Source: a virus (lineage: Duplodnaviria; Caudoviricetes). From it: 64,000 bases of DNA. A program made the position numbers and the translations under genes. The DNA is taken from positions 32,001 to 96,000 of IMG/VR virus record IMGVR_UViG_3300025912_000012; one strand, written 5' to 3'. The notes under the pieces are model-generated. The model was not told the DNA's origin and searched no databases. It saw nothing but the letters and a program-made list of their open reading frames with translations. This document shows positions 6,295 to 42,527 of the stretch, one piece after another (position 1 is the stretch's first letter; every line of letters begins with the position of its first letter).

Positions 6295-6295
6295 G

Positions 6296-30663: not shown

Positions 30664-30664
30664 C

Positions 30665-30862
30665 GTGGCAGATAAGAAACTATCAGATGACCTGATTCGC
30701 TGGATCAGGACAGTCAATCTCCCCCAGCGGGTGGTTGCGCACCAGCTGAAACGTAATCACGGGATCACGGTTGACCAGTCACTGATATGGCAGATCAGGG
30801 CAGGCAAGAAATACGCAGACGTTTCAGCTGTCCCCCCGCTTGACACTCTCGGGGATAGCTGA
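30665..30862 (+). CDS. small HTH-like protein
   Basis: GTG after tRNA; PQRVVAHQL...VDQSLIWQIRAGK. Confidence 0.5.
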   Translation: MADKKLSDDLIRWIRTVNLPQRVVAHQLKRNHGITVDQSLIWQIRAGKKYADVSAVPPLDTLGDS

Positions 30863-30868
30863 TAGATT
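30840..30868 (+). promoter_or_regulatory. internal promoter
   Basis: TTGACA-17nt-TAGATT. Confidence 0.7.
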
Positions 30869-30928
30869 TCCTCTCGTTCCCCCGTTGACTTGCTCCTCAG
30901 GAGCACTCGGGGTTCTCGGGGGAACACA

Positions 30929-31002
30929 TGCCAGCTCGTCTAACGTAAGACACCCGTCCTGATAAGACGGGAGATGGTGATAGCGTAATTCACCGCTGGC
31001 CC
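30929..31002 (+). tRNA. atypical tRNA-Ile(GAT) with 9-nt T-loop
   Basis: CCGTC-CTGATAA-GACGG; T-arm GGTGA-TAGCGTAAT-TCACC. Confidence 0.7.
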
Positions 31003-31005
31003 TAT

Positions 31006-31078
31006 GGGGCTGTAGCTCAGCTGGCAGAGCACCTGCATGGCGTGCAGGGGGTCCGGGGTTCGAGTCCCCGTCGCTCCA
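31006..31078 (+). tRNA. tRNA-Ala(GGC)
   Basis: cloverleaf, AT-GGC-GT. Confidence 0.92.
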
Positions 31079-31239
31079 CGCAAAAGCGAAGGAGAAAAGA
31101 ATGGCTAAGAGCAGGGTCAGGAAATGGCTAGGGACTGACGTATCGCTCCGCAAGGCAATGATCTTCATGGTGTTCGTGATGGTTGCCTTGTTCTTGCTCG
31201 CGGTATTCGGGGTGATACAGCCCAGCAAGTAGTGTTAAT

Positions 31240-31272
31240 CAGGATCGAGGAAGACGGTAATCTGCCGCGTGG
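31240..31272 (+). pseudogene. probable 5' half of a tRNA-Pro truncated at the anticodon loop
   Basis: CAGGATC-GA-GGA-AGACGGTAA-TCT-G-CCGCG-T directly before the endonuclease start; no 3' half seen. Confidence 0.45.
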
Positions 31273-31274
31273 AG

Positions 31275-31772
31275 ATGGACACTCACCTGAAGGGCGAGTT
31301 CGCTGTCCTGAAGGTCTTGATGCGAGCGGTAGAAAAAGGCTGGATAGCTAGTCGTCCGACCCGAGAGTGCCGATACGATCTAGTGCTAGATGATAAGGTT
31401 AAGCTCTATCGAGTTCAAGTTAAGTATGCTAATCGGCTAGCATCTCACACTAAAGGAGCGATTCATCTAGCTCTTACGCAAAGTGGAATAAGAAAAAAGA
31501 ATCCCTACCTAGATAGCGAAGTGGATGCACTAATTGTCTACATCGCACCAGCAGACATGTTGATCTGGCTAGAGACAAGTCATTTCCACAAGAAACGACA
31601 GCTCCATATTAGATATGAACCAGGCAAAAATAAGCAGAGGCAGGGAATTCTTCTTGCTGAGAATTACATTTGGTTAGCGGCTTATAGTGTAAGGGTAAGC
31701 GCGCTGGTCTCGGGGACCAGCAGACCAGGTTCGAGTCCTGGTAAGCCGACTAGGCAAGCCACGTGCCTTTAG
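31275..31772 (+). CDS. PD-(D/E)XK homing-type endonuclease (PDDEXK_5-like)
   Basis: KGEFAV..V, RYDLVLD, RVQVKY, EVDALIVY; AT-rich codons. Confidence 0.85.
   Translation: MDTHLKGEFAVLKVLMRAVEKGWIASRPTRECRYDLVLDDKVKLYRVQVKYANRLASHTKGAIHLALTQSGIRKKNPYLDSEVDALIVYIAPADMLIWLETSHFHKKRQLHIRYEPGKNKQRQGILLAENYIWLAAYSVRVSALVSGTSRPGSSPGKPTRQATCL
31678..31749 (+). tRNA. tRNA-Pro(CGG)
   Basis: cloverleaf nested in the 3' end of the endonuclease ORF. Confidence 0.9.
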
Positions 31773-31817
31773 CTGCCACCCTTGCTAGCAGGTTGAACGG
31801 GCAGCATGTGGCACCAT

Positions 31818-31888
31818 CCGGATGTAGTGAAGGGGTAAAACGCCAGCCCTGGGAGCTGGAGTCGGAGGTTCGAATCCTCCCATCTGGA
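31818..31888 (+). tRNA. tRNA-Pro(TGG)
   Basis: CCAGC-CCTGGGA-GCTGG. Confidence 0.9.
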
Positions 31889-31890
31889 CG

Positions 31891-32085
31891 CAGCTGAGTT
31901 CTCCCCCCTGTAAGTTCAGCTGTAATATGATGCGCATGAAAAGATCAGTATCCCGGGCGACTCAGTGGAGACTGGAAACGGTCTGTTGAGGCTCAGAGAT
32001 ACAGGCTACAGGCACTGCGCTGCCCTGGTAGTCCGAATGTCCCACTCCCCTTGCCTCCCCCTGCCCGGGGGTGCAGGGGGGGTGT
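31891..32085 (+). ncRNA. putative structured RNA
   Basis: CAGCTGA hairpin, long GAAA-tetraloop hairpin (GTATC...GATAC), C/G hairpin; no convincing ORF. Confidence 0.4.
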
Positions 32086-32087
32086 AT

Positions 32088-32159
32088 GCCTCCCTAGCTG
32101 AGATGGATTAGCTACCGGTTGAAGCCCGGTGTAGGCAGGCTCGATACCTGCGGGTGGCA
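32088..32159 (+). tRNA. tRNA-Phe(GAA)
   Basis: ACCGG-TTGAAGC-CCGGT. Confidence 0.88.
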
Positions 32160-32160
32160 C

Positions 32161-32332
32161 GAAGCACGCTGCTGATGACTGGCGGCAGGCGTGTTTCCCC
32201 GCTGAGGATCCGTGTCCTCGGCAAACCCCCTCCGTTGAGTCCGCGTCCTTTTCCTTCCTGCGCGGATTCCGGGGGGATCGGGAGGAGGGACGGGCGGTTT
32301 CTGTCCGGTTGCTTGCCTGTCCCTCCTCCTCC
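32161..32332 (+). ncRNA. putative multi-hairpin small RNA
   Basis: four consecutive GC-rich hairpins, one with loop TCCTTTTCCTTCCT. Confidence 0.5.
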
Positions 32333-32382
32333 AGGGTCGTGTAGTGCTGGCTAGGTAGTTCCTGGTTTAATATCCTGATAGA

Positions 32383-32700
32383 GTGCCTACCACTCCTGCG
32401 CAACAAAAACACTATCAGGAGAATCGTGAACGCTACATTGCCCAAGCAGCTCAACGCAGGGCAATGCTGGCGAAAATGGTACGCGAAGCAAAAGATAAAC
32501 CTTGCGCAGATTGCCAGGAGAAATTTCCTTACTACGTAATGGATTTTGATCACGTAAGAGGTAAGAAGATAGCAGCTATAAGTAGATTGATTAACAAAGG
32601 AAGTCTTTCTGCTCTTTTGGCAGAGATGGAAAAGTGTGATGTGGTGTGCGCTAATTGTCACCGCATTCGTACTTGGAGTTATCTTGCGGATGTAGCTTAG
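32383..32700 (+). CDS. HNH endonuclease
   Basis: CADC, DFDHV, EMEKCDVVCANCHRIRT. Confidence 0.9.
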   Translation: MPTTPAQQKHYQENRERYIAQAAQRRAMLAKMVREAKDKPCADCQEKFPYYVMDFDHVRGKKIAAISRLINKGSLSALLAEMEKCDVVCANCHRIRTWSYLADVA

Positions 32701-32759
32701 TGGTAAAGCCCTTGCCTTCCAAGCAAGCCACGCCGGTTCAATTCCGGTCATCCGTTCCA
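32686..32759 (+). tRNA. tRNA-Gly(TCC)
   Basis: cloverleaf with encoded CCA. Confidence 0.93.
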
Positions 32760-32831
32760 GGTTATAGTTCAGCTTGGTAGAACGCTAGCTCGGGGAGCTA
32801 GAGGTCGCAGGTTCGAATCCTGCTAGCCTGA
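32758..32831 (+). tRNA. tRNA-Pro(GGG)
   Basis: CTAGC-TCGGGGA-GCTAG. Confidence 0.92.
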
Positions 32832-33055
32832 CGTGTTTAAGAAAAGAACAAGGCGCATGCCTAAGAGAATAATCAAGAGAAGAGCAAAGCGACTGGGGAA
32901 AACCCGGTTCGACTGTCCGCGATGCCTTTCCGTGGTCCCCTGCGAAGGATGCAAAAGGGGGTCGGAAGGGCGAAACTAGAGGAGAATTGTCATGCGAAAG
33001 CCTAAGCAGCCCCGGTTGAGGCGGAGCCGAAACAGGCTCCCCCGAAAGCTTTGAT

Positions 33056-33128
33056 GCTCCGGTAGCTCAGTGGCTAGAGCAGGCGGCTCTTAACCGTCGT
33101 GTCGTGGGTTCGATCCCCACTCGGAGTA
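33056..33128 (+). tRNA. tRNA-Lys(CTT)
   Basis: cloverleaf. Confidence 0.93.
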
Positions 33129-33291
33129 CGTAAGGAGAATGATGAGATATGTGCTCATATACAGGATGGTGCGACTGCCGCTGCCGCCCTTGCCTTAACG
33201 GGAAGCATCATAAGAGGCACACGAGACAGTGCCACAAGAATTGCTAGGAGAAAATCATGGGGACTAAACAGAACCTGACTTCGGGCATCAT

Positions 33292-33364
33292 GCTCCGATA
33301 GCTCAGTGGAAGAGCGGTGGGCTTTTAACCCGCGTCGTCCTCGGTTCGAACCCGAGTCGGAGTA
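33292..33364 (+). tRNA. tRNA-Lys(TTT)
   Basis: cloverleaf. Confidence 0.93.
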
Positions 33365-33366
33365 CT

Positions 33367-33507
33367 ATGAGAAAGCAATGTGATCGCTGTAACGGCGATA
33401 AGTTCATGAAAGACGAGGACGGAGAGTTTATCCTCGATGAGAACGGGGAGAAAATCCCTTGCACATTGTGTCTCGGGAGAGGTTATATTACTATCAGTTT
33501 TATGTAA
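33367..33507 (+). CDS. DnaJ-type zinc-finger microprotein
   Basis: CDRCNGDK...CTLCLGRG. Confidence 0.6.
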   Translation: MRKQCDRCNGDKFMKDEDGEFILDENGEKIPCTLCLGRGYITISFM

Positions 33508-33582
33508 GGGCGACTGAAGGGAACTGGCATACCTGGCTAGCTCAAACCTAGTCGTTTCCCGGTTCAAATCCGGGGTCGCCTA
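33508..33582 (+). tRNA. tRNA-Leu(CAA), short variable loop
   Basis: GCTAG-CTCAAAC-CTAGT. Confidence 0.88.
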
Positions 33583-33601
33583 CGCAAAAGAGGAAAACGT
33601 C

Positions 33602-33688
33602 TTGAAAAATATATGCTGCGGGGTTTGCTGGAGGTTCTTTTCAAATAAAGAAATACGAGCGCACATGAGAATTCATGCAAAAAAGTAA
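33602..33688 (+). CDS. C2H2 zinc-finger microprotein
   Basis: GAGGA RBS, TTG start; CGVC.RFF.....AHMRIH. Confidence 0.6.
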   Translation: MKNICCGVCWRFFSNKEIRAHMRIHAKK

Positions 33689-33693
33689 TACAA

Positions 33694-33764
33694 TTCCGGA
33701 TCGTTCAACGGCAGGATGCTAGGCTCTGAACCTGGTGATGTTGGTTCGAATCCAGCTCCGGAAG
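33694..33764 (+). tRNA. tRNA-Gln(CTG)
   Basis: cloverleaf. Confidence 0.92.
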
Positions 33765-33843
33765 CGCAACAGATCGCAGGCGTGGCTGTCTTGCGACTGG
33801 AGAGAGAAACGGTGCGCCAGCTGGCTTACGCCTCTCTCGGCAT

Positions 33844-33914
33844 GCCCCTGTAGCATAATGGCAGTGCACCGCACTCGTAATGCGGCAGTCCCTGGTCAGT
33901 ACAGGGCTGGGGCT
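33844..33914 (+). tRNA. tRNA-Thr(CGT), atypical T-loop
   Basis: CCGCA-CTCGTAA-TGCGG; T-loop GTCAGTA. Confidence 0.82.
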
Positions 33915-33986
33915 CTAGCGACGGGCTTGATGTGCGGCTTAGCGCCGTGACGGGAGTAGCGATCCTGTGTCGTGAAATTCGCCCAT

Positions 33987-34071
33987 GCGCTTGTGGCGGA
34001 ACGGTATACGCGCTAGCTTGAGGTGCTAGTGGTCCGCAAGGGCTGTGCAGGTTCAAATCCTGTCAGGCGCA
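33987..34071 (+). tRNA. tRNA-Leu(GAG)
   Basis: cloverleaf with long variable arm. Confidence 0.93.
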
Positions 34072-34185
34072 CGTAAGGAAAGGGAAAAGAATGAGATGCC
34101 CTCGATGCACGGGAATGCCAAAGGCTGCTTGTATCTGTAAAAGAAAATGCAGGTCTCGGCACTGCCTGTTCCCGTTTTAAAGCAT

Positions 34186-34257
34186 GCCGGATTAGCTCAG
34201 TGGTAGCAGCTACCCCCTTGTAAGGGGAAGACATCAGTTCGATTCTGTTATCCGGCT
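34186..34257 (+). tRNA. tRNA-Thr(TGT)
   Basis: cloverleaf. Confidence 0.88.
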
Positions 34258-34415
34258 CTGGAGGGGGAATGTGAGAGCAAAACGAACTCCTGCGGAAAGA
34301 AAAGAATTGAGAAAGCATCAAGGGTGGGTTACCTGCCCCGATTGCCTGCGGAGAATGTACTGGGTTATTTTCAAGCCGCGAAGATGTCGTTACTGTGGAG
34401 AGAGGCTGACTTAAA

Positions 34416-34652
34416 ATGGATTTCAGCGATGCTCTGCGAGCGATGAAAGACGGAAAGAAAGTCCAGCGGGGAATCTGGAAAAACCAGGCAGTCTTCGGTC
34501 GATTTGACCCGTGGGCGGAAATAGAACAACCCGCACCAGGCTGGGCAAAGATAGTAGTAATAAAAAGCAACGACCCGGGAGTCCCGAACCGCGCAGCTAC
34601 GCTATCGCAATGGGATGTTGTCGAGGCGGATGACTGGGAAATCGTAGAATAG
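34416..34652 (+). CDS. DUF2829 / Tad2-like protein
   Basis: MDFSDALRAMKDGKKVQRGIW...SQWDVVEADDWEIV. Confidence 0.7.
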   Translation: MDFSDALRAMKDGKKVQRGIWKNQAVFGRFDPWAEIEQPAPGWAKIVVIKSNDPGVPNRAATLSQWDVVEADDWEIVE

Positions 34653-34657
34653 CTTAA

Positions 34658-34729
34658 TGCGGAGTGGGGTAATGGCAACCCGAGAGTTTTTGGCACTCTG
34701 AGATGCGCGTTCGAGTCGCGCCTCCGCAG
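34658..34729 (+). tRNA. tRNA-Gln(TTG)
   Basis: cloverleaf. Confidence 0.9.
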
Positions 34730-34740
34730 CAGGAGGAATC

Positions 34741-35028
34741 ATGGAAATCGTAGAGATAAAGAGCACCAGTTACCCTAACGCAGCGGAACTCCCTAACAAG
34801 TCAGGGCGTCCCATCGCAAAGCGCCAGGGATCTCCTGGCGGTAACTCCAGGATGGAAAAGCACCGCTCCGGATCGTACATGCCCCGCCTGGGTGGCAGGC
34901 TGCTCACGGAACAGCAGAAGTCTGACCGGGACGCTACCGCGTCAGGTAAGATGATCCTGATCATCATCGCGGGAAAGAAGCGCAGATTCATTCGCGAAAA
35001 GGATTACCTTGAAGGGAGGTACTTCTGA
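34741..35028 (+). CDS. basic hypothetical protein
   Basis: AGGAGG RBS. Confidence 0.65.
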   Translation: MEIVEIKSTSYPNAAELPNKSGRPIAKRQGSPGGNSRMEKHRSGSYMPRLGGRLLTEQQKSDRDATASGKMILIIIAGKKRRFIREKDYLEGRYF

Positions 35029-35399
35029 TGAGGGGTGTCGGAGGTAACTAATGCCAGAGGGCAGGCTGGTCCCGGACAGGGACTGGGAAGGGAATTTCAC
35101 CGGGGTGCTGGTGTGTGTCAGCTGCCTGGGATGGAACTGCCAGCACGCACGCGGCGAGATTTGCGACATCCGCAACTGCGGGTGTAAGCTAGGATACTAC
35201 GTCAGTCCGATCACACCGACCCCCCAGTCGTTAAACGGGATACCATGTGGCATATATGCTCCTGTAACGCCTACGCTTGCATCTGCCAGGCTGCACTGAG
35301 GGAAAACTACAGGGATTGTTTCGACTGCTGGGCTGGGTACCACTGGTACAAGCAGGAGAAAAAGAAGAAAAAGTACGAGGTCCCCGCATAGGGGACTGT

Positions 35400-35472
35400 G
35401 CCCGCTTAGTGATAACGGTAAGCACACTGCCTTGGTAAGGCAGGGGTCGGAGTTCAATTCTCCGGGTGGGCT
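35400..35472 (+). tRNA. tRNA-Thr(GGT)
   Basis: cloverleaf. Confidence 0.92.
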
Positions 35473-35473
35473 C

Positions 35474-35549
35474 GTGGCCGTGGTGTCAGCGGTTAGCATC
35501 TGACCTTGCCAAGGTTAGGGGGCGAGTTCGAATCTCGTCGGTCACTCCA
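35474..35549 (+). tRNA. tRNA-Gly(GCC)
   Basis: cloverleaf with CCA. Confidence 0.92.
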
Positions 35550-35663
35550 GGAGTAAGGAAATCAGGGTTGATTCACCCACGGAGCCCTGGTTTCTCCTGC
35601 GGGAGGACGTGAGGTTGCAGGTATCAACCGGTGAAACCTGGTAATTTGCGTCTCTCTCGTGAT

Positions 35664-35734
35664 GCGAGTGTAGCTCAATGGCAGAGTTCTAGCTTCCCAA
35701 GCTAGATACGCGGGTCCGATTCCCGTCACTCGCT
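35664..35734 (+). tRNA. tRNA-Gly(CCC)
   Basis: cloverleaf. Confidence 0.9.
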
Positions 35735-35763
35735 CGAAAAAGAAAAGAACAGAATGGGATGCA

Positions 35764-36234
35764 ATGCGCAAGCTACTGGTTATTGTCGCGATAATCCTGG
35801 TAGGGATGGCGTACGCGGGGGACAAGAAAGTCCTCCATAAGGGAGGTTATCACGCCTCTCGCTCAGCAAGACAGGCAATCTCGTACGCGAGGGCTCAGCT
35901 GGGGAAACCGTACCTGTGGGGAGCGCAAGGACCGAATGCGTTCGACTGCTCAGGACTGACGTACAGGGCATGGAGGCTCCCCTCATCTCAGCGGACATCT
36001 GAGCAGCAGTGGAGTGCACAGCAGCACGTATCTCACCCTCACCCGGGGGACCTGGTATACTTTCGCGGGGTCCTCGTAGGGGGCGAATCTCCTCCTGGGC
36101 ACGTCGGGATCGTCATCGGGAAAAACAAGATGATCGACGGGTACGGGAGTGGTACGGTAATGAGGATCGAGTCGTTCGGGAAGGCTAGCTCAGCTCCCGG
36201 ACTGCAGGAAGTGATGGGTTTCACCCGTCCGTGA
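35764..36234 (+). CDS. secreted NlpC/P60 peptidase
   Basis: QLGKPYLWGA.GP.AFDCSGL, PGDLVYF, GHVGI. Confidence 0.93.
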   Translation: MRKLLVIVAIILVGMAYAGDKKVLHKGGYHASRSARQAISYARAQLGKPYLWGAQGPNAFDCSGLTYRAWRLPSSQRTSEQQWSAQQHVSHPHPGDLVYFRGVLVGGESPPGHVGIVIGKNKMIDGYGSGTVMRIESFGKASSAPGLQEVMGFTRP

Positions 36235-36243
36235 GGGCGGTAT

Positions 36244-36328
36244 GCGCTGGTGGTGGAATGGCAGACACGCTGGACTCAGAATCCAGTGATCCGGAAGGGT
36301 CGTGAGAGTTCAAATCTCTCTCAGCGTA
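36244..36328 (+). tRNA. tRNA-Leu(CAG)
   Basis: cloverleaf with long variable arm. Confidence 0.93.
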
Positions 36329-36343
36329 CGGAAGGGAAAAGAA

Positions 36344-36760
36344 ATGGGAAACGTCAAGCAGGTCATCGTTATACGGAAAGACCTGAAAATGCGCCGGGGT
36401 AAGGAAATAGCACAGGGTGCGCATGCCTCGATAGCATTCCTGACTCATCAGATTGAAAGACTCGGGGGTGCAAGCAAACTACACCCGCAGGACGATAAGC
36501 TGTTTGCCTGCGCGTTCATCACCCAGGCTGAATCTGACTGGATCCGGGGGAATTTCCGTAAGATATGCTGCATCGTGAACAGCGAGGAAGAACTGCTCGC
36601 GCTTGTCGAGAAGGCGAAAGCGGCACAGGTTACCTGTGAGCTGATCCAGGATGCGGGGCTTACCGAATTCGGAGGGACTCCTACGTATACCGCAGCCGCG
36701 TTCGGACCGGACTATGATGAGAACCTGGACCCGATCACCGGAGACCTGGTGCTATACTGA
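36344..36760 (+). CDS. pth2: peptidyl-tRNA hydrolase, Pth2 family
   Basis: KQVIVIRKDLKMRRGKEIAQGAHAS, IQDAGLTEF, FGP, ITGDL.L. Confidence 0.95.
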   Translation: MGNVKQVIVIRKDLKMRRGKEIAQGAHASIAFLTHQIERLGGASKLHPQDDKLFACAFITQAESDWIRGNFRKICCIVNSEEELLALVEKAKAAQVTCELIQDAGLTEFGGTPTYTAAAFGPDYDENLDPITGDLVLY

Positions 36761-36916
36761 TTTCCTGAGAGGGGGGTTGGGTATGGCAAAGCTGCACGCA
36801 CGTCCTAGTAATCAGTATCGGTACGAGCATTACGACCCTTGGAGTTGAAAGACACGGGACAGTGGCTACCGCGTTCCCGTGAGCCCGGACTATCCTGGGG
36901 TAGAGCGGTGGCACCT

Positions 36917-37001
36917 GGAGGATGAACCGGACAGGCGTGCCGGGCTCCGTTGCTAGCGGATGCGCAGGTGATACTGTGGCTTTCGAATAGTCCGTCCTCC
37001 G
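36917..37001 (+). tRNA. (8/4) tRNA-Ser(GCT)
   Basis: 8-bp acceptor GGAGGATG/CGTCCTCC, 4-bp T-stem. Confidence 0.88.
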
Positions 37002-37125
37002 CGTGATTAAGAGAATGATCATGTGCACCGGATGCCTGAAGCTAGCCCCGTATGGTAAGGTTTTCTGTCCGCATTGCGGAAAGCCCCTGACGAACGGCGG
37101 GGGCGGGAACTGAAAAGGGAAAAGA

Positions 37126-37386
37126 ATGGGATTCGCGATATTCGTACTGCTGATGATCGGGCTTGTCGCTTTCCTTTCGAGGAAGGCGCTGTTCCGCAAG
37201 AGGGTGGTACGCAGGCTGAGTGATGACCGGCAGCTCTACGAGAGTTCTCGTGTTCCCGTCACCGGTCCGTGCGCCTGCGGAAAGCCCAGGTGCCCCTATA
37301 AGGGTAAGAAGCATCCTCCGCAGACTACCCCTGGTCGGCATGCTCACAAGGTTCACAGGGTGGAGCAGCTGAGGAAAAAGAAGTAA
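37126..37386 (+). CDS. membrane-anchored hypothetical protein
   Basis: N-terminal TM segment, CACGKPRC. Confidence 0.6.
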   Translation: MGFAIFVLLMIGLVAFLSRKALFRKRVVRRLSDDRQLYESSRVPVTGPCACGKPRCPYKGKKHPPQTTPGRHAHKVHRVEQLRKKK

Positions 37387-37391
37387 AGCAC

Positions 37392-37476
37392 GGAGGATGA
37401 ACCCGTCAGGGTACGGGCACTCGCTGGAAACGAGTTGAGCCTACGGGTTACGGTTCGAGTCCGTCGTCCTCTTCCA
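37392..37476 (+). tRNA. (8/4) tRNA-Ser(GGA)
   Basis: 8-bp acceptor, ACGG/CCGT T-stem, CCA. Confidence 0.9.
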
Positions 37477-37477
37477 T

Positions 37478-37565
37478 GGAGAGTGAACCTGCCAGGGAGC
37501 AGGCGCTGCCTCGAAAACAGCTGGGTGTCCTGTGAGACACTGGGGCTCGGGACCTCCGCTCTCCG
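37478..37565 (+). tRNA. (8/4) tRNA-Ser(CGA)
   Basis: GGAGAGTG/CGCTCTCC, GGGG/CCTC. Confidence 0.85.
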
Positions 37566-37975
37566 CATGGAAACGCAGTACACTCATTACACGAAGAACT
37601 GGGCGAACGTCACGGCATGCAATAAACCTGTCCGTCAGGTCATGTACGTCAGCCATCACGCCAGGATGGTGACGTGCCCTTTCTGTAAGACGAAACTCTG
37701 AAAGGAAACGAAATGAAAAAGTGCAGGTTCTGCGGTGAGGATCTTTACCGGGAGGGACGCTACTGGACGACGAAGCAGTACAGTACGATACCGGCTTCGA
37801 TCGTCTGCCAGTCACCGAAATCCCCGAATTACCGGCATTCTCCGAAGTAACGGGAGCTACCGACATGGCAGTGTACGCAAAAGAATGCGGGAATAAGCAA
37901 CACGGGAAGTGCGGTATCTGCGGAGGATGCAAGGTCTCAAGTTGCCGCTCACGCGGATGCTGGGGCTGTTTCTGA

Positions 37976-38057
37976 CGGGAGCATGCTACCGGCGTAGCAC
38001 CCTGCCTTGAAAGCAGGGACAGGGTAACTCCTGGGGGATCGACACCTCTGCTCTCGG
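37976..38057 (+). tRNA. (8/4) tRNA-Ser(TGA)
   Basis: CGGGAGCA/TGCTCTCG, GGGG/CCTC. Confidence 0.85.
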
Positions 38058-38068
38058 CGTAAACACAT

Positions 38069-38142
38069 GGACATCAGTTCACCTGGTTGGTGGAGCTACG
38101 CTGATAACGTAGTCGTGCAGGGTTCAATTCCCTGGGTGTCTA
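38069..38142 (+). tRNA. tRNA-Ile(GAT)
   Basis: CTACG-CTGATAA-CGTAG. Confidence 0.88.
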
Positions 38143-38143
38143 C

Positions 38144-38216
38144 GGGCTAGAAGCCAAACGGTTGAGGCACCTGTCTTATGAACAGCGGATACTGGGTTCA
38201 ACTCCTAGCTAGCCTA
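38144..38216 (+). tRNA. tRNA-Ile(TAT)
   Basis: anticodon loop CT-TAT-GA. Confidence 0.85.
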
Positions 38217-38229
38217 CGCAGGAGGATGA

Positions 38230-38454
38230 ATGCTGAAAAAGAAATCGAAAGACATACGTCTCGGGGACCTGATCCGCACGATGTGGAAGGTGGAGGGCAA
38301 GACGAAGGTCGTCTGCCTGCACTGCGAGTGGCGACCCACCAAGGGCATCGGGTATCCTAACGCCACCCGGGAAGCCAGGGCGCACACCAGGGACAGAAAG
38401 CACCTGACCAGGGTCGCGTCCGTAGAGATCGTAGAATACCGCGTTAAGAGATGA
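38230..38454 (+). CDS. CxxC..H..H zinc-binding protein
   Basis: GGAGG RBS; CLHC...AHTRDRKH. Confidence 0.65.
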   Translation: MLKKKSKDIRLGDLIRTMWKVEGKTKVVCLHCEWRPTKGIGYPNATREARAHTRDRKHLTRVASVEIVEYRVKR

Positions 38455-38815
38455 TATGGACCTGGAACAGTTTTTCGCACATCACTCAGACGAGAGCATG
38501 GAGCCTGTCGATATCGTCTGGGAGTGGGTTCCTGCCGGAACCTACGGGTACTGGCAGCGGGACCCTCACCATGAGGCGATGAAAGTCCTCCGCGACGCTG
38601 GTATGCTGGCTCCCGTGATCACAGAGGAGCTTCCCTGATGGCTCCCCCTAGTGGTATCCGCGTCTACATCAAGAACCACTACAGCTGCGATGACTGCGGC
38701 GCGGAAAAAGGGAAATGGTGCATAGCGTTCAAGGACGGCAAGTCTCATCAGGGTTTGTTGCACAGGTCCCGGCTAGTCAAGTATCATAGGGACAGCGAGA
38801 ACTTCGGGTAAACAC

Positions 38816-38887
38816 GCCCCTGTCGTTCAAAGGACAGGACTACTGCCTTCTAAGCAGTCAATGAGGGTTCGATTCCTTCCAGGGGTG
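38816..38887 (+). tRNA. tRNA-Arg(TCT)
   Basis: cloverleaf. Confidence 0.92.
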
Positions 38888-38952
38888 CGATCCCCCTTTG
38901 ATAGAGCTGGGCAGGCACCTAAGGGGTCTAGGTGCTCGGGAAGACCTGCCAT

Positions 38953-39024
38953 GCTCCCATCGTCCATGGGTTAGGATCCGTGTTTCTCAGACACGGGAAC
39001 GGAGTTCAAGTCTCCGTGGGAGTA
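38953..39024 (+). tRNA. tRNA-Glu(CTC)
   Basis: cloverleaf. Confidence 0.92.
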
Positions 39025-39391
39025 CGCATGAAACCACTGACACCTGACGAACAGGATGCCCTGGCAGCCAACTGCGGCTGGTGCTGGGCGTATCCAGGAA
39101 AACCATGCGTCACAGTCTCCGGGGTGATCCGCAGGCATCCGCATAAGAGGAGGATCATCCGCGCAGAGCGCAGGGGAGTCCTCGGGGGGGTGGGGAGAGT
39201 ACTGATGGAAAACTGGAAGAGAAACGCATGACAACGGTATACAGGTGTCCTCGCGGCGGGTTTCACAAGTTCGCGAAGAAGAAAGTGATCGCTATCACCT
39301 GGGTTCACAAGGTTCCGTGGATTACCAGGAAGGTTAAGTGCACGAAATGTGGCGGGCTTTTCCCTAAAGGAATCACCGCACCATAATACAT

Positions 39392-39463
39392 GGTCCCATC
39401 GTCTATGGGTTAGGATCCGAGGTTTTCACCCTCGGGGACGGAGTTCGAATCTCCGTGGGATCA
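39392..39463 (+). tRNA. tRNA-Glu(TTC)
   Basis: cloverleaf. Confidence 0.92.
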
Positions 39464-39464
39464 C

Positions 39465-39536
39465 GCCGACATGGTGAACTGGCTATCACGCGTCTCTCAT
39501 AAGGACGAGTATCTCGGTCGATACGAGATGTCGGTA
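39465..39536 (+). tRNA. elongator tRNA-Met(CAT); Ile2 not excluded
   Basis: CGTCT-CTCATAA-GGACG; T-loop GTCGATA. Confidence 0.8.
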
Positions 39537-39553
39537 CGCAGGAAGGAAGGATC

Positions 39554-39772
39554 ATGAAGCAGCACATCTGGTGTCTCGTTGACCGGTTCACGAAGCTGAC
39601 AGACGAGATGAACGAGCTGAAAGAGCAGACCCGGGAGCTGTCCTCGGAGAGGGATCAGGTTGCCCTGGAGATGACCCTCACGGGACTGCACCTGCGGGAA
39701 CTGGGGAAGATGTGCGGAGTGAGTGCCCCGCTGATCTGCCGCCTGGCACAGAAAGCCAGGAATAAGATTTGA
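39554..39772 (+). CDS. small HTH protein
   Basis: LHLRELGKMCGVSAPLICRL. Confidence 0.65.
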   Translation: MKQHIWCLVDRFTKLTDEMNELKEQTRELSSERDQVALEMTLTGLHLRELGKMCGVSAPLICRLAQKARNKI

Positions 39773-39797
39773 CACCGGCTGCTGCTGGGTGTAGGGT
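39769..39797 (+). promoter_or_regulatory. internal promoter before the initiator tRNA
   Basis: TTGACA-17nt-TAGGGT. Confidence 0.7.
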
Positions 39798-39808
39798 TTA
39801 AACATCGA

Positions 39809-39882
39809 CGCGGGTTGGAGAAGCTAGGTATCTCGCTGGGCTCATAACCCAGAGGACCCCGGTTCGAATCCGGGACCCGCTA
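39809..39882 (+). tRNA. initiator tRNA-fMet(CAT)
   Basis: unpaired C1, three G-C pairs in the anticodon stem. Confidence 0.92.
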
Positions 39883-39919
39883 CTGGACCTGGGGTATGTC
39901 TGTAAACTGCCCCGAACTT

Positions 39920-39992
39920 TGGCCTCTAGCTTAACTGGCAGAGTCACTCCCTGTTAAGGAGTTCGGTCCCGGTTCGAATCCGGGGGGGTCAG
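39920..39992 (+). tRNA. tRNA-Asn(GTT)
   Basis: cloverleaf. Confidence 0.92.
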
Positions 39993-40033
39993 CGGATCGG
40001 GGTATATGGTTCCGCCCTGCCCCGGTCACCAAT

Positions 40034-40105
40034 GGTCCTATAGTGAAGCGGACATCACATCGCCCCGTCAAGGCGATAGCCCGGGTTCAACTCCCGGTAG
40101 GATCG
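40034..40105 (+). tRNA. tRNA-Asp(GTC)
   Basis: cloverleaf. Confidence 0.92.
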
Positions 40106-40239
40106 CTGGGGGAACAGTGTGGCACTGGTTAAAAAAGTACTCGTATTGTGTAGTTGCCACTGTCCCTACTGTCTCCCCAGAGGCGGAACGCATTGCGGTG
40201 TCAGCAGTAACGGATGTCCCGTAAGATGAAGGAACTGAA

Positions 40240-40428
40240 ATGATGCTTGCAGACAAACTGAACTCACCTGCCCTCACGGCTGTCGGGTTTTCTCTTACGG
40301 TAATTGCCTCAGCTTGTGTCGTGATTGCCTCAGCGCGGCTATTCGGGCTGCGGGGACTGCTAGTCTCCAGTGGCTTGCTGGCAATCGTAGCGCTTATCAT
40401 GGGTATTATAGTTGCAGGACACAACTGA
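40240..40428 (+). CDS. small membrane protein
   Basis: two TM segments. Confidence 0.6.
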   Translation: MMLADKLNSPALTAVGFSLTVIASACVVIASARLFGLRGLLVSSGLLAIVALIMGIIVAGHN

Positions 40429-40433
40429 ATTCC

Positions 40434-40504
40434 GGGTGACTAGCTCAATGGGAGAGCACTGGCTCGACAAGCCAGGGATAGGGGTTCAATTCCCTTGTCG
40501 CCTA
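40434..40504 (+). tRNA. tRNA-Val(GAC)
   Basis: cloverleaf. Confidence 0.92.
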
Positions 40505-40505
40505 C

Positions 40506-40587
40506 GGGGATGAGAAGGGTTCGACTAGCCTTAAAGCCGGTGATGCCGGAACTGGCTAGGACTCCGGTTCGACACCGGGCATCTCCA
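40506..40587 (+). ncRNA. minimal tmRNA: tRNA-like domain only, no tag reading frame
   Basis: GGGGATG/CATCTCC-A acceptor with G3:U70, stemless D-loop ending GGTTCGAC, CTAGCC/GGCTAG stem, GAC connector, TCCGG-TTCGACA-CCGGG T-arm. Confidence 0.8.
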
Positions 40588-40640
40588 CGGGTCCGGGGGT
40601 TAGCTTCAAAGGATTTTGTGGTTAGGTTCTGGACTTTCAT

Positions 40641-40713
40641 GCACCCGTCGTCTAAAGGACTAGGATAACGGCCTACGAAGCCGTTGATGGAGGTTCGATT
40701 CCTCTCGGGTGTG
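40641..40713 (+). tRNA. tRNA-Arg(ACG)
   Basis: cloverleaf. Confidence 0.92.
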
Positions 40714-40933
40714 CGCAAGGAAAGGAAAAGAAATGATAGCGGTACTGATAACTGCGGTAGCATTCTGCGGTACCTTGTATGCGACAGTCCATCCTGGTCC
40801 GCTGCACGGGTTTTTTCACCCCGCGCACTATTCCACAGGGAATGCCATAGCACAGGTCAGCTACGCGCTGATCATCGGGGCGATTGCTTACATGATTGAC
40901 AGGAGATTCTCGCGGAGGCGAAGAAGATAATAC

Positions 40934-41005
40934 GGTCGATTAGCTCAGCGGCAGAGCAGCGCCCCTACAAGGCGCGGCGCGGGGGTTCGAGTCCCTCATC
41001 GACTA
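40934..41005 (+). tRNA. tRNA-Val(TAC)
   Basis: cloverleaf. Confidence 0.92.
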
Positions 41006-41063
41006 CGAAAGTCCTGGTTAACTTACATATCACGTGTTCGCTTGCACTCCAGGGCTTTCTCAT

Positions 41064-41135
41064 GGCGGGTATAGCACAATGGTAGTGCGCTGGACTGTGA
41101 ATCCGGTTATCCGAGTTCAATTCTCGGTATTCGCC
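41064..41135 (+). tRNA. tRNA-His(GTG)
   Basis: cloverleaf with G-1:C73. Confidence 0.92.
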
Positions 41136-41321
41136 CGAGTAAGGGGGAGTTGTGAGGATTCTAGGGAGACGCAGGGAACAAAAGTGTTCCCTTTGCAGGA
41201 TAAGGCGTCGCATTAAAGGTGCGACTATTTGTTCTGTATGCTACAATAAGTCGGTCGGGACTTCGGTTAGGAGCAAGTAATGCATCGATATTATCCGGGT
41301 CAGTACACCTCGCGCTGACTC

Positions 41322-41401
41322 GCCGGATCTTGCACTGGGATGCTCGATTGCCTGTAAAGCAATTGCCTCTGGCTAGACAAGTTCGATTCTTGTATCCGGT
41401 A
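41322..41401 (+). tRNA. tRNA-Tyr(GTA)
   Basis: ATTGC-CTGTAAA-GCAAT, variable arm. Confidence 0.85.
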
Positions 41402-41824
41402 CGTGGGTAAAGTCCTCAGTTTTCCGCCAAGATGCCCGAAATGCAAGGCTCCCCCGCGAAGAGCAATAGGGAGTCAGAGCACCGGGCTGATCATCTATAC
41501 TTGCTCGGGCAAGGATAGGCATAAATGGAATAAGACGTTCACCAACCTAACCAGATAGCTGTCATGAAGACTTATTTTCCGAAGGAAATGATCCACGTGC
41601 GACGCGACGGGATGACCTTCTGCGTGATCTGCCAGTACCTGTGTGTACGCGGTCAGCGCTGTAACTGTTGCAGGCGTACCTGATGAAAATATGGATGTGG
41701 ATTAACACAGTGATAATACTGTCCTCACTTCCGCTGATAGCGGTCAGCGAGAATGCGGCAGCTGCCGCACTTATCGCCGGGGCGGTATCGACTGCCGTCA
41801 GGATGACAGTCCAGCGCTGAAAAT

Positions 41825-41896
41825 GCCCCCGGTGACGGACTCGCCTCGGAGCTTCCGAAGCTTTGATGTCTGGTTCGACTCCAGACGGGGGTACCA
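41825..41896 (+). tRNA. tRNA-Arg(CCG) with reduced D-arm
   Basis: intact acceptor, anticodon and T arms plus CCA; D region GTGACGGACTCGCCT. Confidence 0.8.
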
Positions 41897-41897
41897 T

Positions 41898-41969
41898 GGC
41901 TCGCATCTCACTGGTGTGGGAGAATGGCTGCAACCCATTCGTTGACGAGTTCGATTCTCGTGCGGGTCT
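41898..41969 (+). tRNA. tRNA-Cys(GCA)
   Basis: AATGG-CTGCAAC-CCATT, U73. Confidence 0.88.
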
Positions 41970-41985
41970 CGGAGGAGGAACAGAA

Positions 41986-42195
41986 ATGATACTGGCAGCA
42001 CAGACAGCACCGCTCGATACGTTTGATTATGTTGCCGCAACCGTCTTGTTCTGTCTCGGATGCGTCGGGCTACTGATCTGTTTCCTTTCGGAGGGATTCC
42101 GGAAGAAGCTGGGACTGGGCATTCCCGGGGGGAGTATCACGTTCGTCCTCGGGTGCCTGACCCTCCTCGGGTTGTGTGTCTTCCTTCTCCGCTAG
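41986..42195 (+). CDS. small membrane protein
   Basis: GGAGGAGG RBS, two TM segments. Confidence 0.6.
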   Translation: MILAAQTAPLDTFDYVAATVLFCLGCVGLLICFLSEGFRKKLGLGIPGGSITFVLGCLTLLGLCVFLLR

Positions 42196-42263
42196 CCCCC
42201 GATTGCGGATCTTTCACCGGGTTTCCTAAACCTGGCTGCCCGGTTCGACTCTGGGCGGGGGTG
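42195..42263 (+). tRNA. tRNA-Arg(CCT) lacking a D-stem
   Basis: GCCCCCG/CGGGGGT acceptor, TT-CCT-AA, TTCGACT. Confidence 0.78.
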
Positions 42264-42527
42264 CGTGAGCATAAATCCACCGCGAATATGCCTCCGTTGC
42301 AAGGTTTATCCCGCGACAGATGGCAGTAAATATTGTCCGCGATGCAGGAAAGCAGGAGGATAAGGAATGAGAAACCAGCCAGCCAGGAGAAAGACGGATT
42401 CAACCCGCAGGGTGAACGGAAAGCTCCAATGGCGCGTCTACGGGCTTGGATGGGTATCTACAAAAACGATGATAACTCTCGTTGTCATCACTGTCATCCT
42501 GATCGTGCTTATCTTCCTCGGTTTCTG

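What the first reader, a model, noticed from the sequence alone, without database searches (positions are those of the whole stretch)
32857..42363. About 18 Cys-rich zinc-finger microproteins interleaved between tRNAs
Seen by hand translation, mostly below the ORF-track cutoff and many with a clear RBS: 32857-32979 (CPRC..CEGC), 33367-33507 (DnaJ-like), 33602-33688 (classical C2H2), 34091-34180, 34271-34414, 35051-35299, 37015-37113, 37567-37701, 37713-37850, 37865-37975, 38230-38454, 38638-38811, 39028-39231, 39228-39386, 41152-41280, 41403-41558, 41564-41683 and 42265-42363. They are 28-82 aa, mostly Lys/Arg-rich, and all on the tRNA strand with different finger types. Inference: a library of small RNA- or ribosome-binding or anti-defence effectors co-expressed with the tRNAs.
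Basis: partly seen in the sequence, partly recalled or inferred. Interest (0 to 1): 0.7.

Follow-up and report, generated by a model that had tools for sequence, protein, structure and literature searches.

The report
Zinc-finger mini-genes between phage tRNAs
An uncultured soil phage packs about twenty tiny, unrelated, cysteine-rich (probably zinc-binding) protein genes into the gaps of its 40-gene tRNA cluster; they are real genes under selection that come and go as whole units between related phages, but what they do is still unknown.

Summary
Observation confirmed. All 18 ORFs exist as described, on the tRNA strand. In the inter-tRNA spacers, 8 ORFs carry two CxxC knuckles and 19 carry a CxxC plus a second Cys/His pair. 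The opposite strand has none, and dinucleotide shuffles give 0.02 and 0.6.

Thirteen of the 18 have relatives in related phage contigs. dN/dS is 0.07-0.38 for close pairs, and Cys is kept at 92 of 92 aligned positions against 59% for other residues. Two belong to Pfam PF24623. Five rest on motif, RBS and spacing only; 33602 and 34091 are the weakest. At least three further Cys-rich ORFs were missed.

The set is heterogeneous, not one expanded family. Between close relatives, single RBS-ORF-stop units are present, absent or replaced at tRNA junctions, as is a Tad2-like anti-Thoeris gene. Seven ORFs start 0-2 nt after a tRNA(-like) 3' end.

Interpretation partly supported. A diverse small-protein library inside the tRNA operon is real. 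RNA or ribosome binding and anti-defence roles are untested, and paralogs outside the array argue against a tRNA-specific role.

This scan has noted zinc-microprotein arrays in other phages, but those were single-family expansions. I call this a new variant of a known kind.

The parts
32833..32979 (+). Zn-ribbon microprotein (CPRC..CEGC), 48 aa from GTG 32833 or 40 aa from ATG 32857
   Evidence: Two CxxC knuckles. GTG 32833 abuts the tRNA-Pro(ggg) 3' end. No homolog found. In L003 the same slot holds a different Cys-rich ORF that also starts at the tRNA end.
33149..33247 (+).
   Evidence: Lies in the Lys(ctt)-Lys(ttt) spacer. L039 and L003 hold other Cys-rich ORFs in the same slot. No direct homolog; moderate support.
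33367..33507 (+). DnaJ/anti-TRAP-like CxxCxGxG microprotein, 46 aa, acidic
   Evidence: Fills the spacer exactly, 1 nt after tRNA-Lys and 0 nt before tRNA-Leu. Relative P0005 is 78% identical with both knuckles kept. Pfam hits to DnaJ_CXXCXGXG and Anti-TRAP are sub-threshold. Called as a gene on 16 contigs.
33602..33688 (+). C2H2-like microprotein, 28 aa, TTG start (weak)
   Evidence: zf-C2H2 E 0.0025-0.0046, below the gathering score. Best of six frames by codon score, with a GAGG RBS. In L003 and L039 this spacer is only 12 nt.
34091..34180 (+). 29-aa ORF with 6 Cys (weak)
   Evidence: A precise RBS+ORF+stop unit (34073-34182), absent from L036, where the two flanking tRNAs abut. Codon score is the worst of six frames.
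34271..34414 (+). Zn-ribbon microprotein (CPDC..CRYC), 47 aa
   Evidence: L036 ortholog is 89% identical, dN/dS 0.13. Paralog at window 6122-6253. GGAGG RBS.
34416..34652 (+). Tad2-like (anti-Thoeris sponge family) gene, not a zinc finger, occupying a cassette slot
   Evidence: PF11195, E 3e-9, above the gathering score. Absent from L036, where the 34271 ortholog is followed directly by tRNA-Gln.
35051..35299 (+). Cys-rich microprotein; the conserved part is about residues 1-65
   Evidence: L036 ortholog is 85% identical, dN/dS 0.24. 12 of 20 substitutions fall at third codon positions, and there is an in-frame 3-nt indel. The tail is unconstrained: the stop is lost in L036.
35245..35391 (+). 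Extra 48-aa Cys-rich ORF overlapping the tail of the previous one
   Evidence: 44 of 48 residues identical in L036. Substitutions favour the third codon position of this frame.
37003..37113 (+). Zn-ribbon microprotein (CTGC..CPHC), 36 aa from GTG 37003
   Evidence: Orthologs in L040 and L036, dN/dS 0.36-0.38, with a conserved N-terminus upstream of ATG 37015. The start abuts tRNA-Ser(gct) 36917-37002. Sub-threshold DZR/Zn-ribbon Pfam hits.
37126..37386 (+). Extra 86-aa protein: N-terminal membrane helix plus a Cys cluster
   Evidence: Conserved in L036, L040, L003 and L039, just upstream of tRNA-Ser(gga). Cys kept in all.
37567..37701 (+). H-C-CxxC microprotein, 44 aa
   Evidence: L040 ortholog is 80% identical, dN/dS 0.07. 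ATG abuts tRNA-Ser(cga) 37478-37566. Paralogs at window 8616-8858 and 8759-8935 (-) and at L036:4704-4844. Absent at this site in L036.
37713..37850 (+). CxxC..C..H microprotein, 45 aa
   Evidence: L036 ortholog is 87% identical, dN/dS 0.09. Paralog at window 7206-7349 (-).
37865..37975 (+). 36-aa ORF with 7 Cys
   Evidence: Two or more CxxC. Absent from L036. Flanked by the direct repeat T[A/G]ACGGGAGC, which is the 5' end of tRNA-Ser(tga). No homolog found.
38230..38454 (+). C2H2-type (CxxC-x19-H-x5-H) basic protein, 74 aa
   Evidence: Relative P0002 is 68% identical, with both Cys and both His kept. GC3 0.79 and an AGGAGG RBS. In L036 the slot holds a 37567-like gene. AF2 pLDDT 70, no fold match.
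38638..38811 (+). PF24623 (Phage_zn_bind_8) zinc finger, 57 aa
   Evidence: 24.5 bits against a gathering score of 24. The N-terminus is conserved at the end of contig L036.
39028..39231 (+). PF24623 (Phage_zn_bind_8) zinc finger, 67 aa
   Evidence: 33.3 bits against a gathering score of 24. Orthologs in L040 (88%, dN/dS 0.09) and L003 (62%); P0013 and P0014 are also relatives. ATG lies 2 nt after tRNA-Glu(ctc).
39228..39386 (+). YRCPxGGxH...CxKCG microprotein, 52 aa; a small undescribed family
   Evidence: Orthologs in L040, L039 and L003. Only 7 cluster representatives among 1.84 billion proteins. AF2 gives an all-beta model with pLDDT 73; no significant PDB fold match.
41152..41280 (+). Very basic Zn-ribbon microprotein (CSLC..CSVC), 42 aa
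   Evidence: Positional orthologs in L003 and L039, about 24-33% identical with all four Cys kept. Absent from L040.
41403..41558 (+). CxxC..C..H microprotein, 51 aa
   Evidence: L040 ortholog is 71% identical, dN/dS 0.17. GTG abuts the tRNA-Tyr 3' end.
41564..41683 (+). H + 6 Cys microprotein (C-x2-C-x3-C-x5-C-x-CC), 39 aa
   Evidence: Orthologs in L040, L003 and L039, with invariant H11 and six Cys. Starts 5 nt after the preceding stop.
42265..42363 (+). Zn-ribbon microprotein (CLRC..CPRC), 32 aa
   Evidence: Two CxxC. GTG abuts a tRNA-like element at 42195-42264. Absent from L040. L039 and L003 hold 31-aa CxxC..CxxC ORFs in the same slot. Weak codon score.
30429..42264 (+). tRNA array that carries the cassettes: 35 tRNAs by default ARAGORN, plus Ser(gct) 36917-37002, Ser(cga) 37478-37566, Ile(tat) 38144-38217, Cys(gca) 41898-41970, and tRNA-like elements at 40506-40590 and 42195-42264
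   Evidence: Gene order is syntenic with L003, L039, L040 and L036.
30229..30257 (+). Promoter-like site (TTGACA-17-TATCTT with TG) at the head of the array; a second lies at 30840-30868
   Evidence: A consensus match only.
32383..32700 (+). HNH endonuclease inside the array
   Evidence: phrog_3106, E 1e-27. L036 carries a different HNH at another junction.
36344..36760 (+). PTH2 peptidyl-tRNA hydrolase, the conserved anchor used to find relatives
   Evidence: PF01981, E 2e-27. The start is probably ATG 36344, after the RBS that follows tRNA-Leu.

Best explanation
The ORFs are real protein-coding genes. They form a heterogeneous set of about 20 small (28-86 aa), mostly basic, probably zinc-binding proteins (zinc ribbons, CCCH/HCCC knuckles, C2H2-like fingers) from at least 15 unrelated sequence families.

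Shown:
- Each is a minimal RBS-ORF-stop unit, or just ORF-stop, sitting in a spacer of the phage's roughly 40-gene tRNA operon.
- The proteins are under purifying selection with invariant metal ligands.
- Between related phages, whole units are gained, lost or replaced at tRNA junctions while the tRNAs stay nearly identical.

Inferred:
- The units are transcribed with the tRNAs from the promoter(s) at the head of the array.
- tRNA excision cuts the precursor into mini-messages. Seven of these would begin exactly at their start codon (leaderless), which suits an actinobacterial host.
- The conserved tRNAs and the resident HNH endonucleases provide the homology and the breaks for cassette exchange.

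Most likely function (inference, about 35-40%): individually dispensable small binders of host or phage nucleic acids or proteins, used early in infection for host takeover, regulation or counter-defence, like the Tad2-type gene that shares their slots. They are probably not parts of the tRNA or translation machinery.
For: - Enrichment: 8 strict and 19 loose motif ORFs on the + strand, 0 on the - strand, 0.02 and 0.64 in shuffles. The syntenic array L003 shows the same (5 and 14 against 0.05 and 0.8), and the unrelated array L035 has 5 strict against 0.08.
- Codon score: the given frame is the best of six for 11 of 18.
- Relatives: orthologs exist for 13 of 18. dN/dS is 0.07-0.38 in nine close comparisons. 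Cys is kept at 92 of 92 positions against 59% for other residues in 24 pairs.
- Known family: PF24623 scores above the gathering score for two members.
- Heterogeneity: all-against-all BLAST finds no shared family inside the array.
- Cassette turnover at exact junctions for 34091, 37567, 37865, 38230, 42265, the Tad2 gene and an extra L036 ORF.
- Start placement: 8 of 41 tRNA(-like) 3' ends are followed within 0-2 nt by a start codon opening an ORF of at least 25 aa, against 2.1 expected (p 0.001). Seven of those eight are Cys-rich members; the eighth (30665) is not. Those ORFs lack a separate RBS, while almost all the others have one.
- Transcription: promoter-like sites upstream and no convincing terminator inside.
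- Host: the nearest cultured relatives are Streptomyces and Arthrobacter phages.
Against:
- Five members (32857, 33602, 34091, 37865, 42265) have no detectable homolog, and three of them have poor codon scores.
- Pairwise dN/dS on 30-80 codons is noisy, dS is saturated for the distant pairs, and BLOSUM-based alignment favours Cys-Cys matches.
- Some very Cys-rich members (6-8 Cys in 29-39 aa) could bind Fe-S or other metals, or be something other than zinc fingers.
- The functional reading rests on neighbourhood and evolutionary behaviour only.
Confidence: 0.6

Rival explanations
1. Translation-linked factors. The microproteins bind the phage tRNAs, their precursors, the ribosome or RNA-repair enzymes, and so belong functionally to the tRNA, PTH2, RtcB and mini-tmRNA rescue module.
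For: - They sit inside the tRNA operon next to PTH2 and downstream of RtcB.
- 16 of 18 are strongly basic.
- Zinc ribbons are typical of small ribosomal proteins and of RNA binders such as phage Mu Com (own knowledge).
- Some families keep the same tRNA neighbour across four lineages: 39228 sits beside tRNA-Glu and 41564 sits after tRNA-Tyr.
Against: - No Pfam match to ribosomal or RNA-binding zinc-ribbon families.
- Three families have paralogs in a tRNA-free small-gene region on the other strand.
- Cassettes vary between phages whose flanking tRNAs are 98-100% identical.
- In Streptomyces phage Gilson the small genes between tRNAs are mostly Cys-free: about 3 of 26 have a CxxC.
Confidence: 0.15
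2. Small DNA-binding transcription regulators or structural DNA binders of the phage, as proposed for the zinc-ribbon expansion of Bacillus phage G and implied by the name of PF24623.
For: - Two members belong to PF24623, a 'putative DNA-binding phage zinc finger'.
- Basic charge.
- Iyer et al. 2021 (PMC7824862) suggest specific transcription factors or structural DNA-binding proteins for the ~35 zinc ribbons of phage G.
- A C2H2-type ligand set is conserved in 38230.
Against: - The Pfam name is itself a prediction.
- Twenty regulators that are individually dispensable and turn over quickly would be unusual.
- Most members are too short for a finger plus a recognition element.
- No fold match to DNA-binding domains for the two models made.
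Confidence: 0.2
3. Chance ORFs or decayed fragments, for example remnants of HNH homing endonuclease zinc knuckles, with no function of their own.
For: - HNH genes with CxxC pairs live in these arrays.
- Five ORFs have no homolog.
- 34091 and 42265 have poor codon scores.
- Most were not called as genes in the public collection.
Against: - Enrichment is several hundred-fold over shuffles and over the opposite strand.
- dN/dS is well below 1 and Cys is invariant.
- The ORFs fill their spacers to within 0-5 nt and carry an RBS or abut a tRNA.
- No HNH profile hit at E up to 1.
Confidence: 0.05

Closest known systems
Small hypothetical genes interleaved with tRNA genes in large actinophages, e.g. 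Streptomyces phage Gilson (NC_048742, Stanwilliamsviridae)
   Same: One-strand tRNA region with 30-60 aa ORFs between the tRNAs, an HNH endonuclease, a tmRNA-like gene and an RNA ligase nearby. Some annotated CDS start at the base after a tRNA.
   Different: In Gilson only about 3 of 26 small CDS have a CxxC, whereas here about 20 of roughly 28 do. There is no sequence similarity apart from a tRNA-Lys.
Lineage-specific zinc-ribbon expansion (~35 copies) of Bacillus jumbo phage G (Iyer et al. 2021, PMC7824862), and the single-family zinc-microprotein arrays noted earlier in this scan
   Same: Many tiny zinc-type proteins in one phage genome, fast evolving, function unknown.
   Different: Those are paralogs of one family in tandem. 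Here the members are unrelated to each other, separated by tRNAs, and exchanged as single cassettes.
Pfam PF24623 Phage_zn_bind_8 (putative DNA-binding phage zinc finger)
   Same: 38638-38811 and 39028-39231 score above the gathering cut-off and keep the C-x2-C...C...H ligands.
   Different: It covers only 2 of the 18, and the family's function is itself untested.
Phage 'morons' and hyperplastic accessory regions (Hendrix-type mosaicism; own knowledge)
   Same: Single accessory genes present in one phage and missing at the exact junction in a close relative; includes an anti-defence gene.
   Different: Classical morons bring their own promoter and terminator. These units carry at most an RBS and seem to rely on the tRNA operon's transcription and processing.
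One-domain zinc-finger micro-proteins of haloarchaea (Nagel et al. 2019, PMC6562870, cited in PMC10117724)
   Same: Dozens of unrelated proteins under 70 aa in one genome, each with one or two CxxC pairs; translation was shown there by Ribo-seq and mass spectrometry.
   Different: Those are cellular and scattered across the genome, not clustered in an RNA-gene operon and not cassette-like.
Phage Mu Com and B. subtilis anti-TRAP (small zinc proteins that bind an mRNA or an RNA-binding protein; own knowledge)
   Same: Size, four-ligand zinc site, regulatory binders. 33367 has sub-threshold Anti-TRAP and DnaJ-CxxCxGxG hits.
   Different: No significant sequence match, so this is a model for how such proteins can work, not a family assignment.

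Membership tests
PF24623 Phage_zn_bind_8 | Profile score at or above Pfam's gathering cut-off (24 bits) | tested here: met
   39028-39231 scores 33.3 bits and 38638-38811 scores 24.5 bits. Precomputed PF24623 on relatives P0013 and P0014. None of the other 16 match.
PF24623 Phage_zn_bind_8 | DNA binding | not testable with these tools
   This is a name-level prediction only. No solved relative by sequence.
Generic zinc ribbon (two CxxC knuckles on a beta-hairpin scaffold) | Two CxxC (or CxxC plus C/H pair) 6-45 residues apart, conserved in relatives | tested here: met
   8 strict and 19 loose ORFs. Cys kept at 92 of 92 positions in orthologs. The AF2 model of the 39228 family is all-beta, pLDDT 73. 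The Foldseek top hit, the MqsA zinc domain, is not significant at E 0.78.
Generic zinc ribbon | Zinc actually bound | not testable with these tools
   Needs metal analysis of purified peptides.
Classical C2H2 zinc finger (PF00096 / PF13894), for 33602-33688 | Profile score above the gathering cut-off | tested here: not met
   17.8 and 18.8 bits against cut-offs of 25.2 and 27. The C-x2-C-x11-H-x3-H spacing is one residue short of canonical.
DnaJ CXXCXGXG (PF00684) / Anti-TRAP (PF15777), for 33367-33507 | Profile score above the gathering cut-off | tested here: not met
   16.7 and 16.3 bits against cut-offs of 32.7 and 32. Two CxxCxGx[KG] motifs are present and conserved in P0005.
Zinc-ribbon ribosomal proteins (L31, L32, L33, L36, S14, S18) | Profile match | tested here: not met
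   Only Ribosomal_L33 at E 0.22 for 42265-42363; nothing for the rest.
Single-family lineage-specific expansion (phage G type) | Members are paralogs of one another | tested here: not met
   All-against-genome BLASTP finds no similarity among array members. The only pair is the two PF24623 members. Three members have paralogs outside the array.
Moron (autonomous accessory gene unit) | Present or absent at a precise junction between close relatives | tested here: met
   34091, 37567, 37865, 42265, the Tad2 gene and L036:4370-4549.
Moron (autonomous accessory gene unit) | Own promoter and terminator | tested here: not met
   No promoter- or terminator-like sites flank the units, only RBS-like purine runs.

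The most novel reading that the evidence does not exclude
The tRNA array works as an integrase-free cassette platform. The conserved tRNA genes act as homology anchors for swapping whatever lies between them, helped by resident homing endonucleases. They also act as RNA punctuation: tRNA excision would turn each inserted ORF into its own short message, often leaderless. The zinc microproteins, together with Tad2-type genes, would then be a rapidly renewed arsenal of small binders against host defence or host machinery, all expressed at the level and time of the tRNAs.
Probability: 0.3. Interest if true: 0.8.

Novelty: new variant of a known kind. Interest (0 to 1): 0.58.

Why it matters
Gene callers mostly miss these genes. 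Of the eight ORFs looked up by exact sequence (two of them under two alternative starts), only two were on record in the 15-billion-protein collection, although the 74-aa ORF 38230-38454 was also on record. Yet they take up about a quarter of the array and are clearly under selection. So the 'non-coding' spacers of phage tRNA clusters can hide a large accessory proteome.

The exact-junction gain and loss, and the start codons abutting tRNA 3' ends, give two testable ideas. One is that tRNA genes serve as recombination anchors. The other is that tRNA processing produces leaderless messages in actinophages.

If even some of these proteins are host-takeover or counter-defence factors, the array would be a compact, naturally diversified source of very small binders with defined metal-clip scaffolds.

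Tried and rejected
- PHROGs scan of all 18: nothing below E 0.009, and no functional label.
- tblastn of 39028-39231 against 50,697 cultured phage records: no match.
- Word-based homolog searches for 38230, 33367 and 39028: one or two relatives each, so the families are very narrow.
- Exhaustive profile search of the 39228 family: 7 representatives among 1.84 billion proteins.
- ESM Atlas for 38230: only a 0.88 lead to DUF7848, not confirmed by Pfam.
- AF2 models of the 39228 family (pLDDT 73) and of 38230 (pLDDT 70): Foldseek against PDB gave no hit with E <= 0.001.
- PDB sequence searches: nothing.
- Search for RNase III-type long stems around the ORFs, as reported elsewhere in this genome: none in the array.
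- HNH-remnant idea: rejected, no HNH profile hits.
- Ribosomal-protein idea: rejected, no hits.
I therefore have no expression data and no population-level view of the 12-16 contigs that hold identical proteins.
- Literature searches for zinc microproteins or small ORFs in phage tRNA arrays found no paper describing this layout.

Full report
**Context.** The window is bases 32001-96000 of a 135-kb IMG/VR virus record estimated 88% complete. It has about 57% G+C. Its nearest cultured relatives are Streptomyces and Arthrobacter phages, and they are distant: a tRNA-Lys is 90% identical to Streptomyces phages, and a primase-like protein is 30-35% identical.

ARAGORN finds 35 tRNAs, all on the + strand, between 30429 and 41402. 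With a relaxed threshold and Rfam, four more appear: tRNA-Ser(gct) 36917-37002, Ser(cga) 37478-37566, Ile(tat) 38144-38217 and Cys(gca) 41898-41970. There are also two tRNA-like elements at 40506-40590 and 42195-42264.

Other genes in or near the array:
- an HNH endonuclease at 32383-32700;
- a Tad2-like gene at 34416-34652, NlpC/P60 at 35764-36234 and PTH2 at 36344-36760;
- RtcB upstream at 24582-25751.

I counted ORFs of at least 25 aa in the 8.9 kb of inter-tRNA spacers.

| Measure | + strand | - strand | 300 dinucleotide shuffles (mean; max) |
|---|---|---|---|
| Two CxxC, 6-45 residues apart | 8 | 0 | 0.023; 1 |
| CxxC plus a second Cys/His pair | 19 | 0 | 0.64; 4 |

The genome as a whole holds 26 two-CxxC ORFs, and 8 of them lie in this 9.5 kb. 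A codon-usage score trained on 63 long genes ranks the proposed frame first of six for 11 of the 18, where 3 would be expected by chance.

Every ORF has one of three start contexts. It has a purine-rich RBS (GGAGG, or the recurrent AAGGAAAGG type), or it starts 0-2 nt after a tRNA 3' end, or it follows the previous stop by 5 nt. Stops lie 0-5 nt before the next tRNA in seven cases.

**Conservation.** A PTH2-anchored search found a syntenic 34-tRNA array in IMG/VR (L003, PTH2 65% identical). It also found closer metagenome fragments: L036 (89%), L040 and L039.

tblastn and pairwise codon alignments give orthologs for 34271, 35051, 37015, 37567, 37713, 38638, 39028, 39228, 41152, 41403 and 41564. 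Protein searches add relatives for 38230 (68% identical) and 33367 (78% identical). For the nine close comparisons, dN/dS (NG86) is 0.07-0.38.

Over 24 ortholog pairs, every one of 92 Cys positions is kept, against 59% of other residues (Fisher p 2e-20). Two caveats apply: the pairs are not independent, and BLOSUM alignment rewards Cys matches. The His ligands of 38230, 39228 and 41564 are also invariant.

The spacer-motif enrichment recurs in L003 (5 strict and 14 loose, against 0.05 and 0.8 in shuffles). It also recurs in an unrelated 42-tRNA array, L035 (5 strict against 0.08). Five ORFs have no homolog: 32857, 33602, 34091, 37865 and 42265. Three of these have two CxxC knuckles, which is rare by chance. 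I rate 33602 and 34091 at about 60-65% real.

**What they are.** Pfam places 38638 and 39028 in PF24623 (Phage_zn_bind_8) above the gathering score. All other hits (zinc ribbons, double zinc ribbon, C2H2, DnaJ-CxxCxGxG, Anti-TRAP) are below threshold. PHROGs gives nothing.

The members are not paralogs of one another. Three do have paralogs in a separate region of small genes on the other strand:
- 34271 resembles 6122-6253;
- 37713 resembles 7206-7349;
- 37567 resembles 8616-8858 and 8759-8935.

The 39228 family has a fixed YRCPxGG..C.KCG signature. It has only 7 cluster representatives among 1.84 billion proteins. Its AF2 model is an all-beta hairpin structure (pLDDT 73) with no significant PDB match.

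Sixteen of the 18 are basic.

**How they evolve.** Window and L036 share tRNAs at 98-100% identity, but they differ by whole units.

- The 34091 unit (RBS, ORF and stop, 34073-34182) is missing in L036, where tRNA-Leu abuts tRNA-Thr.
- 37865 is missing in L036. In the window it is flanked by a direct repeat that is the 5' end of tRNA-Ser(tga).
- 37567 is missing at its site in L036, but a diverged copy there replaces 38230.
- The Tad2-like gene is inserted in the window at the last two codons of 34271.
- L036 has an extra 59-aa CxxC ORF in what is a 10-nt spacer in the window.
- 42265 and a neighbouring small membrane ORF are missing from L040.
- Across L003 and L039, the same tRNA-to-tRNA slots hold different Cys-rich ORFs.
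- HNH endonucleases sit at different junctions in the window and in L036.

**How they are probably expressed (inferred).** Strong promoter-like sites lie at 30229 and 30840, and no convincing + strand terminator lies inside the array. The tRNA genes do not encode CCA.

Eight of 41 tRNA(-like) 3' ends are followed within 0-2 nt by ATG or GTG opening an ORF of at least 25 aa, against 2.1 expected (p 0.001). Seven of these are Cys-rich members: 32833, 33367, 37003, 37567, 39028, 41403 and 42265. The L036 ortholog of 37003 also starts at the base after its tRNA. Annotated CDS in Streptomyces phage Gilson do the same. Cutting at the tRNA 3' end would therefore leave leaderless messages. Actinobacteria translate such messages well (own knowledge).

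**Function.** Nothing here shows function. I favour individually dispensable small binders used for host takeover, regulation or counter-defence, at about 35-40%. The reasons are their turnover, their heterogeneity, the paralogs outside the array and the Tad2-type neighbour in the same kind of slot. Tad2 is a Thoeris signal sponge (bioRxiv 10.1101/2023.05.01.538930).

DNA-binding regulators are the next option, at about 20%. This rests on the PF24623 name and the view of Iyer et al. 2021 on phage G zinc ribbons. A translation-linked role is possible, at about 15%. It is weakened by the paralogs elsewhere, by cassette variability beside identical tRNAs, and by the Cys-poor small genes of the Gilson tRNA region (about 3 of 26 with CxxC).

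**Novelty.** Small ORFs between phage tRNAs are already annotated in cultured phages, and zinc microproteins are common in phages. What seems undescribed in the papers I could search is the combination seen here:
- about 20 unrelated zinc-type genes filling a tRNA array;
- their exchange as minimal cassettes at tRNA junctions;
- the frequent start codon at the tRNA 3' end.

Earlier notes of this scan describe zinc-microprotein arrays in other phages, but as single-family tandem expansions.

Noticed in passing
window 36917-37002, 37478-37566, 38144-38217, 41898-41970, 42195-42264: Default ARAGORN misses four tRNAs (Ser-gct, Ser-cga, Ile-tat, Cys-gca) that appear at -ps90 or in Rfam. 42195-42264 is homologous to tRNA-Arg genes of L003 and L039 but scores poorly as a tRNA. 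The 110-aa ORF 41863-42195 spans tRNA-Cys and is probably spurious.
   Followed up: partly
window 34416-34652: A Tad2-like (PF11195) gene is present in the window but precisely absent from the close relative L036. It is inserted at the last two codons of the preceding zinc-ribbon gene.
   Followed up: partly
window 30665, 32833, 33367, 37003, 37567, 39028, 41403, 42265: Start codons lie 0-2 nt after tRNA 3' ends (8 of 41 ends, 2.1 expected). This suggests leaderless messages made by tRNA processing. The same is seen in L003, L039, L036 and in annotated CDS of Streptomyces phage Gilson.
   Followed up: partly
window 30429-42000 (tRNA borders): Most tRNA 5' ends are preceded by (C)AT, so that ATG straddles the border. 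Many 3' ends are followed by a shared purine-rich module of the G(T/C)AAGGAAAGG type before the next ATG. No tRNA encodes CCA.
   Followed up: no
window 6100-9450, mostly - strand: A second cluster of small genes with zinc-finger microproteins (6122-6253, 7206-7349, 7896-8018, 8616-8858, 8759-8935, 9226-9405). Three of them are paralogs of array members.
   Followed up: partly
window 32383-32700 and L036:~100-416: HNH endonuclease genes sit at different tRNA junctions in the window and in the close relative. The one in the window overlaps tRNA-Gly(tcc) by 15 nt.
   Followed up: no
window 35245-35391 against 35051-35299: Two conserved Cys-rich reading frames overlap by 55 nt. The substitution pattern switches from one frame to the other near 35245. 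In L036 the first ORF has lost its stop and runs into a tRNA.
   Followed up: partly
window 36302-36760, 40709-40930: The longest-ORF starts lie inside tRNAs. The real starts are probably ATG 36344 (PTH2) and ATG 40733 (a small membrane protein), each after the shared RBS module.
   Followed up: no
window 40506-40590: An Rfam tmRNA model matches an 85-nt tRNA-like element (48.9 bits, gathering score 47) right after tRNA-Val(gac). It appears to be a tmRNA-like acceptor/T-arm domain without a tag region.
   Followed up: no
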